Notes under the pieces: model-generated
The model's input: the letters and a program-made list of their open reading frames with translations, nothing else
Told to the model about the DNA's origin: nothing
Databases searched by the model: none
Position numbers and translations under genes: made by a program
IMG/VR virus record: IMGVR_UViG_3300036546_000144
Span: 1 to 33,905 of that record
Source: a virus
Taxonomy: Duplodnaviria > Caudoviricetes
Strand: one strand, 5' to 3'
DNA length: 33,905 nt
Part shown: positions 17,892-24,931 of the stretch, one piece after another
Layout: every line of letters starts with the position of its first letter
Position numbering within the stretch: the stretch's first letter is position 1

Positions 17892-18233
17892 CTACCAAAA
17901 TAATGAATGTGGGATGGATTCATTACCCACACTATCTCGGGGAAAAAGCGGCTCTATCTTCCGGTTCTTCAACGAAAGTGTGATGGGTAACTTCACCGCC
18001 ACCACATCGTTTTCTCGGTAAACGTTTTCATCAATAGTCACTTCTTCTTCTTGAATCGTGGTATAATAGAAGCTTGCATAGTCCCGATGGAAGTTTTGTT
18101 TAATGAAGTCACGTAAAGCCGGTAATGATGTGTGGACAGCTTTCAGTTGGTATTTTTTCGTTTTGGGATAATGTAAAATCCCCTTTAGAACTTCTTCTTC
18201 GGTTAAGGCAAAATACAGCATGTCATTTACCAT
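17892..18233 (-). CDS. Hypothetical protein, possibly virion
   Basis: 113 aa; coupled to the upstream gene; ends ...GNESIPHSLFW, similar in style to the upstream protein's SFEEPPSIKW. Confidence 0.65.
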   Translation of the reverse strand: MVNDMLYFALTEEEVLKGILHYPKTKKYQLKAVHTSLPALRDFIKQNFHRDYASFYYTTIQEEEVTIDENVYRENDVVAVKLPITLSLKNRKIEPLFPRDSVGNESIPHSLFW

Positions 18234-19357
18234 TTGATAGATGGGGGTTCTTCAAAAGACAGTTTATCGGCATGTAGACCTTTAAGGGTAGACCATTCAC
18301 TGGATGTTACAGTCTGTATATCCAATAAATCAAACTGTTTAAAATCACGTGAACGCTCAAAGGTAATCCGATAGTAACCTTTCTCTAAAACATTCTCAGT
18401 GTCAAACGCAATGGAACCTTCAGAAATCTCCAATAGCATCTGAACGTGGTACAATCGCGTTCTCTTTTTATCCGAAAACGCTGTGGTCATGACTTGTCGG
18501 TAGAAGAAACGACCCACTATTTTGGATGGGTATTTCCATTTCTCTTTACTGTAAGGTACTAACCAACACTCTCCTGACTCTTCAGCATCATACAGGATAC
18601 TTTTATTGGGCCGTAAAACAGTTTCGTTTTCAAACACGTAAATATACCACCCCCCATTCCAGTCGCCCCAATCGTTACTGAAATCGTATAGATCAGAAAC
18701 ATACCCGATCAAACATCCTTTAAGGGTAGGTGCTACAGATACCCTAGGAACTGAACGGTCCTCTTTATTAGCAGTGCGCCTAGAAACGCTGGGTATAAAG
18801 TGTTTAATCTTAGGGTCGGTCGGGATATGAAAAAGTCGTTCGTGGTGTTCGACCGTAACTTTTTTCTTTAATGTTGGATAAGCCGTGTCTAAATATGTCT
18901 GCAGTTTCTCATTATCACTCTCTTGAGATTCCATGGTGATACTAACCCTAAAGTGTTTTATAAAATCGAGTATTCCCGGATAATCGTTAAACCTGACCCT
19001 TAACCCGTCGTCCCAGACTTGTTGGATGTTTTCCGACTGGGTGCCCCACTTCAGGTTATTGGGTTTAACGTTGGTTCGATCATTATCCAAGTGTAAGACA
19101 ACCGCACCGTCAAAGGGTGGTGGTCCTTTAAACGCTAGACACATGATGATGTGTAGGTACTCTAACGTATGTCGTTTGGCCCCGTCACGGTATACCGCCA
19201 CACGAAGGTAGCGACCACTCATAGAGCCCTTAGACACCCTCCCTGTCTTTTTGGTGAGGATCTCCCCTCTGGGGTTAGCACAATACCCTGAGAAGCCCGG
19301 AATTTCAAACCAACCCGTATATTGTTTAGAGGGGATGGGATTAAAAATGTCAGTCAT
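18227..19357 (-). CDS. HNH endonuclease (NUMOD4/HNH_3-like) fused to a phiKZ-type head-protein-like domain
   Basis: N-terminal WFEIPGFSGY...LHIIMCLAFKGPPP...VVLHLDNDRTNVKPNNLKWGTQSENIQ; C-terminal LFHI...FIP...EDRSVPRVSVAPTLKGCLIG. Likely start ATG 19357, overlapping the SNase stop. Confidence 0.8.
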   Translation of the reverse strand: MTDIFNPIPSKQYTGWFEIPGFSGYCANPRGEILTKKTGRVSKGSMSGRYLRVAVYRDGAKRHTLEYLHIIMCLAFKGPPPFDGAVVLHLDNDRTNVKPNNLKWGTQSENIQQVWDDGLRVRFNDYPGILDFIKHFRVSITMESQESDNEKLQTYLDTAYPTLKKKVTVEHHERLFHIPTDPKIKHFIPSVSRRTANKEDRSVPRVSVAPTLKGCLIGYVSDLYDFSNDWGDWNGGWYIYVFENETVLRPNKSILYDAEESGECWLVPYSKEKWKYPSKIVGRFFYRQVMTTAFSDKKRTRLYHVQMLLEISEGSIAFDTENVLEKGYYRITFERSRDFKQFDLLDIQTVTSSEWSTLKGLHADKLSFEEPPSIKW

Positions 19358-19772
19358 GGTAACTACCCAATTTTTCGAACCCTTCTTCAATCAGGATGTC
19401 TTTCAGTAAACGATTGTCAGGGAGTATCACATTCCCCTCAACGCGATTATAGACACCCCAGCCCCATACTTTTAAACGCAACGGTTTTTGAGACAACAGT
19501 TCAGTCGCCCGTACAGTTGCAGCTTCACCGTGGGTGCGTTCTGCTTCTGTTTTGGGTCGCCACGTTTCTGGTGCATCAAAATCCTTAATGCGGACTCGCT
19601 GATCGGTTCGGATACCCAAACCCAAGTCGATTTCAAAATCCATAGTGTCAGCATCCACAATGTTCGTGAGTCTGACTGGAAAGACGTGCGTGGGGTACTC
19701 TTCTGCGATGACGGGGTGACAATGGGTCAGTACCGAGGATAAAATAATGAGTATAAATTTCTTAAACACCAC
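19350..19772 (-). CDS. Thermonuclease (SNase) family protein with an N-terminal signal/membrane segment
   Basis: IVDADT, VRIKDFDAPE and GVYNRV correspond to the SNase DGDT / RLxGIDAPE / D-K-Y-G-R motifs. Confidence 0.85.
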   Translation of the reverse strand: MVFKKFILIILSSVLTHCHPVIAEEYPTHVFPVRLTNIVDADTMDFEIDLGLGIRTDQRVRIKDFDAPETWRPKTEAERTHGEAATVRATELLSQKPLRLKVWGWGVYNRVEGNVILPDNRLLKDILIEEGFEKLGSYHD

Positions 19773-23996: not shown

Positions 23997-24471
23997 CAAA
24001 TTGAACCAATAACCTTAATGAAGGCGAACACATGATTAACTATTACGGTATACTTAAAGAGGTCCTATCTCCAACGCCATAAAAGTGATGTTAGCTAACT
24101 ACGCTGACCCCTAGTAAGATTAAAATTTTTGAACTGTAAGGAAAAGAACATGTTCACAGAACCGATGGCGGGAGAGGCTCGTATTGTGTGGTCACACGTA
24201 AGATGGCTGAAATTACAGAATCGGTCAGACCCATTTACTTACTAAAGTAAAAAAATACTTCCCTTCTAAACGTATGACGAACTAACATTCGTTCAAACAT
24301 AGTGAATACCTCCTGTTGTAGATCGGAGGGTGAAATTAAGTAACCCTCCACCCACTTAGAAACTCGTGTTCGGGTAAATATGGTAAAAGCGTTCAGAGTA
24401 ATGGGGAAACGTTAGGTCGCCTTGAACTAACGTTATCCTATTAAAAAAAAAAGACTGATTAAAAGTTTTAT

Positions 24472-24558
24472 ACGGGTATGGCCAAATCGGTAAAGGCAAC
24501 AGATTTAAAATCTGTCGGTGTTAGCACCTTGCGAGTTCGAGTCTCGCTACCCGTACCA
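24472..24558 (+). tRNA. tRNA-Leu (anticodon UAA)
   Basis: Acceptor ACGGGTA/TACCCGT + A + CCA; anticodon arm ACAGA-TTTAAAA-TCTGT; long variable arm GGTG-TTAG-CACC; T arm GCGAG-TTCGAGT-CTCGC. Confidence 0.95.
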
Positions 24559-24562
24559 CTAT

Positions 24563-24639
24563 GATCCTGTCTAACAAAACAAAACGAACCCACTCGTTGA
24601 CTGGTAACTTCAGAAACTACCATCGCGTTAGACAGGGTC
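24563..24639 (+). ncRNA. Candidate small three-way-junction RNA within the tRNA cluster
   Basis: 13-bp closing stem GATCCTGTCTAAC/GTTAGACAGGGTC enclosing the hairpins AACGA/TCGTT and TGGTA/TACCA. Confidence 0.5.
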
Positions 24640-24728
24640 TCACTATTAGGGCCTATAGCTCAGTTGGTCAAGAGCATCCGTAAAAAAATATTATTTGTAT
24701 GTGTGCTCTAACCAAAGCATAATTAGTT

Positions 24729-24805
24729 GTCCCTGTAGCTTAGCGGTCTAAAACAGCAAGCTCATAACTTGTAAATCGTGGGTTCAAATCCCACCGGGGA
24801 CACCA
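24729..24805 (+). tRNA. tRNA with CAU anticodon (elongator Met or Ile2), nested inside the split tRNA
   Basis: Acceptor GTCCCTG/CGGGGAC + A + CCA; anticodon arm GCAAG-CTCATAA-CTTGT; T arm GTGGG-TTCAAAT-CCCAC. One D-stem mismatch; lacks the initiator 3 G-C pairs. Confidence 0.9.
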
Positions 24806-24829
24806 CTTAAAAATTTTAAGGATTATGCT

Positions 24830-24881
24830 ATGAAAACCAAAATAGAACTAGACTACCCATACACCAAAAGATGGAAAACAG
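24830..24881 (+). pseudogene. N-terminal remnant of a probable HNH homing endonuclease
   Basis: AAGGA RBS; MKTKIELDYPYTKRWKT resembles the start (KIxLEYP..W.xGY) of HNH genes I recall from phage tRNA clusters; the frame then runs into the tRNA 3' half. Confidence 0.5.
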
Positions 24882-24931
24882 AATCCATTGGTCACAGGTT
24901 CAAGTCCTGTTGGGCCCACCATACATTAAAT

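What the first reader, a model, noticed from the sequence alone, without database searches (positions are those of the whole stretch)
24654..24721. The insert begins with an antisense copy of the tRNA D-arm that can sequester the orphan 5' half
TGCTCTAACCAA-AGC-ATA (24704-24721) can pair with TAT-A-GCT-CAG-TTGGT-CA-AGAGCA of the broken 5' half, giving a long imperfect hairpin that ends just before the nested tRNA. The 12-mer TGCTCTAACCAA is the exact reverse complement of the common D-arm sequence TTGGTTAGAGCA, not of the local variant TTGGTCAAGAGCA. This suggests it evolved against tRNA targets generally rather than arising as a local inverted duplication. Inference: it prevents the orphan half from misfolding the new tRNA, or presents a clean RNase P leader.
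Basis: partly seen in the sequence, partly recalled or inferred. Interest (0 to 1): 0.7.

Follow-up and report, generated by a model that had tools for sequence, protein, structure and literature searches.

The report
Mirror copy folds broken tRNA half
In this jumbo phage a DNA insert has split an isoleucine-type tRNA gene, and it carries a spare tRNA, a likely nuclease-gene remnant and a back-to-front copy of the broken gene's own D-arm; the copy is predicted to fold the leftover half shut, likely arose as a local mirror duplication, and is not predicted to affect the spare tRNA.

Summary
The window is a PhuZ-encoding jumbo phage. A 205-nt insert (24677-24881) splits a tRNA(CAU) gene; an intact allele exists. 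The insert holds the mirror arm, a replacement tRNA(CAU) and 16 codons resembling an HNH family that sits in split tRNA genes. The 12-mer is not a general tRNA motif: among 130 fetched tRNAs it occurs in 9 of 20 tRNA(CAU) and 0 of 110 others, including the homologous gene of a phiKZ-like phage. Symmetry continues into insert DNA, and in three runs the spacer is inverted: this is a local inverted repeat carried by the cassette. Deleting it leaves the nested tRNA's predicted fold unchanged but restores the dead gene's D-arm (0.00 to 0.95). The last third of the finding pairs over the nuclease's ribosome-binding region. One unrelated cassette has the same anatomy, but 8 of 8 unselected cassettes lack it, and pattern hits do not exceed a control. 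Selected function is unproven.

The parts
24649..24676 (+). Orphan 5' half (about positions 1-26) of a tRNA(CAU) gene, Ile2-type by acceptor pairs C4-G69 and C5-G68 (determinants recalled)
   Evidence: intact relatives with CAT anticodon; matches the intact allele of run X3 without gaps
24677..24881 (+). Insert (cassette), 205 nt, replacing 10 nt of the anticodon arm
   Evidence: Joint 24676 to 24882 with 10 letters between in a run X3 contig of 324 nt, depth 3
24664..24715 (+). Imperfect inverted repeat and hairpin: arms 24664-24682 and 24698-24715, loop 24683-24697 with palindromic centre at 24689/24690
   Evidence: spacer inverted in runs X2, X3, X12
24704..24715 (+). Anti-D-arm 12-mer, mirror copy of the common tRNA(CAU) D-arm
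24716..24724 (+). 5' strand of a second stem that encloses the nested tRNA
   Evidence: Pairs with 24821-24829 at p 0.91-1.0; inverted repeat I13
24729..24805 (+). Nested replacement tRNA(CAU), diverged from the split gene, likely Ile2
   Evidence: ARAGORN; Rfam RF00005 61.8 bits; many weak matches annotated tRNA-Ile or tRNA-Met
24817..24829 (+). Shine-Dalgarno-like AAGGA and spacer of the nuclease relic, predicted to be paired
   Evidence: Unpaired probability 0.07 or less in the precursor
24830..24877 (+). Likely relic: first 16 codons of an HNH endonuclease gene
   Evidence: 69% identity over 16 aa to the Aeromonas phage P19 HNH; tblastn E 0.3; phrog_14913 HNH E 0.13; weak alone, supported by context
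24882..24921 (+). 3' part of the split tRNA gene (about positions 37-76)
   Evidence: absent in L019 and L045
24930..24962 (+). Terminator-like hairpin closing the tRNA transcript
   Evidence: I6, I10; listed on the minus strand; palindromic

Best explanation
The segment is the right arm of an imperfect inverted repeat at the left end of an insert that splits a phage tRNA(CAU) gene; it likely arose by fold-back copying of the D-arm of an earlier allele of that gene, likely travels with the insert as part of a nuclease-plus-spare-tRNA homing cassette, and is predicted to fold the leftover 5' half shut, which would stop the dead gene's transcript from looking like a tRNA. Shown: the hairpin-capable sequence, the insert boundaries, the intact allele, conservation of the arm, the flipped spacer, the restriction of the 12-mer to tRNA(CAU) in the fetched set. 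Predicted by folding: loss of the dead gene's D-arm, no effect on the nested tRNA, and pairing of the adjoining 9 nt over the nuclease ribosome-binding region. Inferred: fold-back origin (about 0.75), homing by the HNH (about 0.8), and retention because the hairpin silences the dead shell (about 0.4).
For: Intact allele with identical 5' half, extra A included. 12-mer in 9 of 20 tRNA(CAU), 0 of 110 others, including phage phiHQ's gene whose first 15 nt equal the window's, and the P19 orphan half. Symmetry continues to a palindromic centre. The letters before 24705 in X2, X3 and X12 match the minus strand of the L019 spacer. Three of 24 metagenome hits (L035, L036, L042) are near-perfect fold-backs centred on tRNA anticodon arms, probably library artefacts, which shows that DNA synthesis can make this anatomy. 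Shell D-arm probability 0.00 with the 12-mer, 0.95 without. All four listed X6 changes in the hairpin keep or add a pair, three as G-U; the flipped allele has G-C and A-U where the window has A-U and U-G. L085, an unrelated 286-kb phage contig, has 5' half, mirror arm (12 of 13 pairs, the same C-A mismatch, 4 pairs beyond the search pattern), HNH_3 gene (E 7e-11), replacement tRNA(CAU) and 3' half.
Against: The hairpin persists in alleles without the 3' half (L019, L045; terminator-like sequence follows the tRNA in X2 and X3), where no shell can form. L019 has a pair-breaking change at 24704, and the flipped allele breaks the pair at 24672. By my count, stem transitions are 5 G-U-type to 2 A-C-type, not different from 50:50; only 7 of 18 X6 differences were listed. 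Paired changes can come from DNA exchange between arms without RNA selection. The arm is barely more conserved than the rest of the cassette (24/24 versus 74/77 and 25/28). None of 8 unselected nuclease cassettes shows excess half-to-insert pairing (30-98 of 100 shuffles as good; one reached 7 of 1000 in the duplex test). The general pattern gave 2 non-tRNA lineages besides this one; the reversed control also gave 2. The shell acceptor stem stays at 0.92 with the hairpin, and RNase P can cut acceptor-plus-T-arm substrates (recalled). No RNA data.
Confidence: 0.5

Rival explanations
1. Neutral scar: a fold-back duplication made when the cassette was first captured, kept alike by recent homing and by exchange between the arms, with no selected RNA role.
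For: Spacer inversion shows DNA-level exchange; conservation similar to the rest of the cassette; pair-breaking changes exist; 8 of 8 unselected cassettes do without it; control pattern gives as many non-tRNA lineages.
Against: Three G-U-type changes and one gained pair in X6 cannot come from arm homogenisation alone; same anatomy and same mismatch in L085.
Confidence: 0.3
2. DNA operator: the mirror copy is a second binding site for the cassette's HNH nuclease, used to turn down its own transcription, as I-TevI does (operator mentioned in PMC2988022 passages; mechanism recalled).
For: The arm matches the common target allele, not the local one, here and in L085; the right arm is better kept than the left; a TATG, the phiKZ late-promoter motif (PMC4666361 passages), lies at 24698-24701.
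Against: TATG is frequent and not sufficient; the arm persists after loss of the HNH (L019); no binding data; flipping the spacer would move the TATG.
Confidence: 0.1
3. One reading: the arm protects the nested tRNA from misfolding with the orphan half or presents a clean RNase P leader.
For: The arm is always joined to the nested tRNA in the alleles seen.
Against: Nested acceptor 0.98, T arm 1.0 and cloverleaf cost 2.32 kcal/mol are unchanged by deletion, and pair probabilities by 40 scrambles; leader accessibility unchanged without the 12-mer. Caveat: equilibrium folding of unmodified RNA does not recover this tRNA's D and anticodon arms in any context.
Confidence: 0.07
4. Trans-acting antisense RNA against host tRNAs in general.
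For: A transcript starting inside the loop would carry the arm without its cis partner.
Against: In cis the arm is paired at p 0.6-1.0; in a leader-only transcript it folds on itself; the 12-mer is confined to tRNA(CAU) in the fetched set; paired changes track the cis arm. Host tRNAs were not examined; the host is unknown.
Confidence: 0.03

Closest known systems
T4 SegB, free-standing homing endonuclease of the tRNA cluster (PMC2330249; abstract and passages read)
   Same: A nuclease gene among phage tRNA genes; SegB cuts within tRNA genes and spreads itself with flanking tRNA genes.
   Different: SegB is GIY-YIG, lies between tRNA genes and recognises the T-arm. Here an HNH relic and a same-anticodon replacement tRNA sit inside the anticodon arm, with a mirror D-arm copy; none of that appears in the passages read.
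RBS-sequestering hairpins of phage homing endonucleases: I-TevI, I-TevII, I-TevIII, segB, Aeh1 mobE (PMC2988022; passages of sections 12 and 14 read)
   Same: 24716-24724 pairing with 24821-24829 is predicted to cover the region between the Shine-Dalgarno-like sequence and the AUG of the nuclease relic.
   Different: The stem encloses a whole tRNA, so tRNA processing would release it (inference). The anti-D 12-mer itself does not touch the RBS.
Inverted repeats from fold-back or template switching, with spacer inversion between arms (recalled, no paper read)
   Same: Symmetry to a palindromic centre at a break point; spacer found in both orientations.
   Different: The arms are old and imperfect, and several differences are G-U-compatible.
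Group I introns and archaeal-type introns in tRNA anticodon loops (recalled)
   Same: An insert at the anticodon arm of a tRNA(CAU) gene.
   Different: No Rfam intron match; 10 nt of the anticodon arm are lost, so splicing could not restore the gene; a spare tRNA is carried instead.

Membership tests
Free-standing HNH homing cassette in a tRNA gene | Insert-plus and insert-minus alleles at one site | tested here: met
   Intact allele in run X3, one 324-nt contig at depth 3
Free-standing HNH homing cassette in a tRNA gene | Intact endonuclease gene in the insert | tested here: not met
   Only 16 codons resembling an HNH N-terminus; X6 has 519 other letters there, starting with a possible ORF, not identified
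Free-standing HNH homing cassette in a tRNA gene | Relatives of the nuclease occupy tRNA genes | tested here: met
   15 of 54 records fetched; ARAGORN finds tRNA in 14 of 15; an orphan 5' tRNA piece directly upstream in 8 of 15 by eye; P19 splits a tRNA(CAU)-type gene
Free-standing HNH homing cassette in a tRNA gene | Nuclease cuts the empty allele and spares the occupied one | not testable with these tools
   Needs a biochemical assay
RBS-sequestering hairpin of phage homing endonucleases | Stable stem over the RBS of the nuclease gene | tested here: met
   Predicted only: unpaired probability 0.07 or less over 24817-24829, via 24716-24724 and a local stem; unaffected by loss of the 12-mer
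RBS-sequestering hairpin of phage homing endonucleases | Late promoter that removes the 5' strand | not testable with these tools
   TATG motifs are present but too common to call; no RNA run listed
Self-splicing or protein-spliced tRNA intron | Intron core or exons that rejoin to a full tRNA | tested here: not met
   No intron family in Rfam; 10 nt of the anticodon arm missing
Selected cis RNA hairpin | Significant covariation or excess of pair-keeping changes | tested here: inconclusive
   Four sequence types only; 5 G-U-type versus 2 A-C-type; two double changes in a flipped allele
General anti-tRNA antisense RNA | Complement to D-arms of many isoacceptors | tested here: not met
   12-mer in 0 of 110 non-CAU tRNAs, 11-mer in 1 of 110, in a phage-derived and biased set; host tRNAs not tested

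The most novel reading that the evidence does not exclude
Elements that break tRNA genes have repeatedly evolved a built-in silencer for the half-tRNA they leave behind: a mirror copy of the target's own D-arm that rides at the element's left end, stays paired through compensatory change and arm exchange, and keeps a dead tRNA shell from being processed, modified or charged. It is seen here, in an unrelated HNH cassette with the same target and the same mismatch (L085), and possibly at tRNA-Phe and tRNA-Arg halves (L079, L084).
Probability: 0.3. Interest if true: 0.7.

Novelty: new variant of a known kind. Interest (0 to 1): 0.42.

Why it matters
The locus shows a series of states of one selfish element: intact gene, split gene with a nuclease relic, split gene with a different long insert, loss of the 3' half, and a flipped spacer. 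If the mirror arm is selected, it shows how an element that destroys a tRNA gene without splicing limits the harm of the leftover fragment, and it is testable with a 273-nt transcript and RNase P. If it is a scar, it records how such cassettes are first captured. Cassettes of nuclease plus same-anticodon spare tRNA inside a tRNA gene were not found in six paper searches, but they recur in this scan's own notes, so the cassette is not unique to this window.

Tried and rejected
Protection of the nested tRNA: no change in predicted fold. Idea that 24714-24723 is the flank of a phiKZ-type terminator, as in phiHQ: no such flank pair 10-40 nt apart in the window; left open. Sigma-70 promoter seen by eye at 24695-24723: not listed by the scan, and hits were at chance level. 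GTDB scan for the arm plus leader: 17 hits, 0 of 17 with a tRNA, treated as chance. IMG/VR scan for the nested tRNA: only the L019 contig. First hairpin pattern: 2 IMG/VR stretches, one L019 and one not a tRNA; 24 metagenome stretches, of which 2 are this clade, 3 are near-perfect tRNA fold-backs and the rest unrelated. P19 HNH in IMG/VR: no relative confirmed; the family alignment was too variable to search with. L080 matched the pattern but has no extension, and the hairpin is not its predicted fold: treated as chance. The control was run for the pattern only, not. L076 was left out because no D-arm remains. Rfam gave nothing for the hairpin. No RNA holder listed. No earlier scan notes on this genome or sequence. 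No supplements were read.

Full report
Setting. The window encodes PhuZ tubulin, terminase and a phiKZ-type DNA polymerase; the closest PhuZ in named phages is Xanthomonas phage LucasX at 46%. It is a fragment of a phiKZ-like jumbo phage. ARAGORN and Rfam find two tRNAs, Leu(UAA) at 24472-24558 and a tRNA(CAU) at 24729-24805. The second lies between two halves of another tRNA gene, 24649-24676 and 24882-24921. Intact relatives of that gene carry a CAT anticodon (14 of 16 loci; phage phiHQ). Both tRNAs have C4-G69 and C5-G68, which I recall as Ile2 determinants.

The observation. The 12-mer and the local variant are as described. The hairpin has arms 24664-24682 and 24698-24715, with pair probabilities 0.6-1.0 in the full precursor. 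It beats shuffles: 1 of 200, 0 of 100, 18 of 1000 for the D-arm alone. Two details differ from the finding. The pairing runs inward past the D-arm into insert DNA, toward a palindromic centre at 24689/24690. The claimed outer pairing does not form in the full precursor: 24716-24724 pairs with 24821-24829, enclosing the nested tRNA and covering the stretch just before the AUG at 24830.

Alleles. L019 (PhuZ 99% identical) and L045 keep the 5' half, the hairpin and the nested tRNA, but join the tRNA's end directly to the terminator, so the ORF relic and the 3' half are gone. A run X3 contig (324 nt, depth 3) is the intact allele: it matches 24633-24676 without gaps, so it has the same extra-A D-loop, and continues through 10 letters of anticodon arm into 24882. 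The insert is therefore 24677-24881. Another X3 contig covers 24726-24911 like the window. X6 covers 24449-24810 and then has 519 other letters before 24914. Contigs of X2, X3 and X12 (two studies) match only 24705-24805; the letters before 24705 match the minus strand of the L019 spacer. The spacer between the arms is inverted in those alleles, as expected of a DNA inverted repeat whose arms exchange (recalled principle).

The cassette. The ORF starting at 24830 gives weak HNH matches (E 0.13; Aeromonas phage P19 homing endonuclease, E 0.3; 69% over 16 residues). The P19 gene is HNH_3 and sits inside a tRNA gene at its anticodon loop. I fetched 15 of the 54 records that match it. ARAGORN finds tRNA in 14 of 15, and by eye 8 of 15 have an orphan 5' tRNA piece directly upstream; LucasX, HPP-Temi and Bas91 follow the gene with a whole tRNA that appears to be of the same kind. 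L016 shows the same tRNA(CAU) gene split in another phage by a different, nuclease-like gene plus a replacement tRNA, and L005 is a shortened form (family judged by eye). The insert is best read as a decayed homing cassette with a spare tRNA; the homing itself is inferred from SegB (PMC2330249, abstract and passages) and from the allele pair.

Why the arm does not match the local half. Among 130 distinct tRNAs in the fetched loci the 12-mer occurs in 9 of 20 tRNA(CAU) and 0 of 110 others. The set is enriched for this gene family, so the 9 of 20 is inflated, but the 0 of 110 speaks against a general target. The phiHQ gene has the window's first 15 bases followed by exactly this D-arm. The simplest history is that the arm was copied from an allele with the common D-loop and that the cassette later entered an allele with the extra A. 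Near-perfect fold-backs centred on tRNA anticodon arms occur in 3 of 24 metagenome hits; they are probably library artefacts and serve only as an analogy for how such a copy can arise.

What it does, by folding. The nested tRNA is unaffected: acceptor 0.98 and T arm 1.0 with the segment, without 12 or 18 nt, and in 40 scrambles; enforcing the cloverleaf costs 2.32-2.34 kcal/mol in every context. Leader accessibility does not change without the 12-mer. The program does not recover this tRNA's D and anticodon arms in any context, which limits the test. What changes is the dead gene: its D-arm goes from 0.00 to 0.95 when the 12-mer is removed, its T arm from 0.25 to 0.40, and its acceptor stem stays at 0.92-0.93. 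With the arm, the precursor would lack the D-loop to T-loop elbow that tRNA-processing enzymes use (recalled). The last third of the finding belongs to the other stem, which resembles the RBS-covering hairpins of T4 homing endonucleases (PMC2988022, passages).

Is it selected? For: the four listed X6 changes in the hairpin keep or add pairs, three as G-U; the flipped allele has G-C and A-U where the window has A-U and U-G; L085 repeats the whole anatomy with another HNH_3 gene and the same C-A mismatch, with 4 pairs beyond the search pattern; L079 and L084 have long hairpins over tRNA-Phe and tRNA-Arg halves (MFE better than 100 of 100 shuffles, but chosen by pattern). Against: L019 and the flipped allele each break a pair; my tally of stem transitions is 5 G-U-type to 2 A-C-type; only 7 of 18 X6 differences were listed; the arm is hardly better kept than the nested tRNA; the hairpin remains where the 3' half is lost; none of 8 unselected cassettes shows excess pairing; and the reversed control pattern found 3 non-tRNA contigs of 2 lineages among 35 hits, against 2 other lineages for the real pattern. 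Selection is possible but not shown.

Comparison and verdict. The cassette works like a free-standing homing endonuclease of the SegB kind but is not an intact member, and it is not an intron. Six paper searches found no description of a nuclease with a same-anticodon spare tRNA inside a tRNA gene, nor of a mirror D-arm in such an element (listings and abstract starts only, plus passages of PMC6409571, which links HNH genes to tRNA clusters without such detail). The library lacks most subscription papers. This scan's own unchecked notes list 15 similar cassettes and one integrase-type element with an antisense copy of the tRNA 5' end; they are leads, not support. Verdict: a real, cassette-borne mirror copy of the target gene's D-arm, likely of local fold-back origin, predicted to close the orphan half; not a general anti-tRNA element and not predicted to help the nested tRNA fold. 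Interest 0.42.

Noticed in passing
window 24563-24639; L019 5458-5533: Structured non-coding element between tRNA-Leu and the split gene: a long closing stem rebuilt with different letters in L019 and two conserved inner hairpins; no Rfam match. May be a small phage RNA.
   Followed up: partly
window 24357-24558; L019 5364-5451; run X6: The neighbouring tRNA-Leu(UAA) appears to be a replacement too: L019 has a different Leu gene at this site, and X6 has a 5' half resembling the L019 gene followed by the window-type gene (table 5c).
   Followed up: no
run X6, between window 24810 and 24914: 519 other letters beginning with a Shine-Dalgarno-like motif and ATG; possibly a second nuclease gene in the same cassette.
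   Followed up: no
L016 (reverse strand 805-1525) and L005: The same tRNA(CAU) gene split in other phages by a nuclease-like gene plus a replacement tRNA; L016 has its own hairpin across the left junction, using the anticodon-stem strand.
   Followed up: partly
L080 (reverse strand 894-1406): An HNH-like gene after an orphan 5' half; the end of the insert seems to supply a new 5' half to the resident 3' half of a tRNA-Asn.
   Followed up: no
L079 (reverse strand about 860-1514): An HNH-like reading frame appears to start upstream of a tRNA-Phe 5' half and read through it and its hairpin.
   Followed up: no
L064-L078: One HNH family (N-terminus KIELEYP-like, C-terminal zinc-finger-like cysteines) lies beside or inside tRNA genes of many isoacceptors in unrelated phages.
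   Followed up: partly
window 18227-19390 (-): A second HNH-domain gene fused to an unknown domain (phrog_59, phrog_5043).
   Followed up: no
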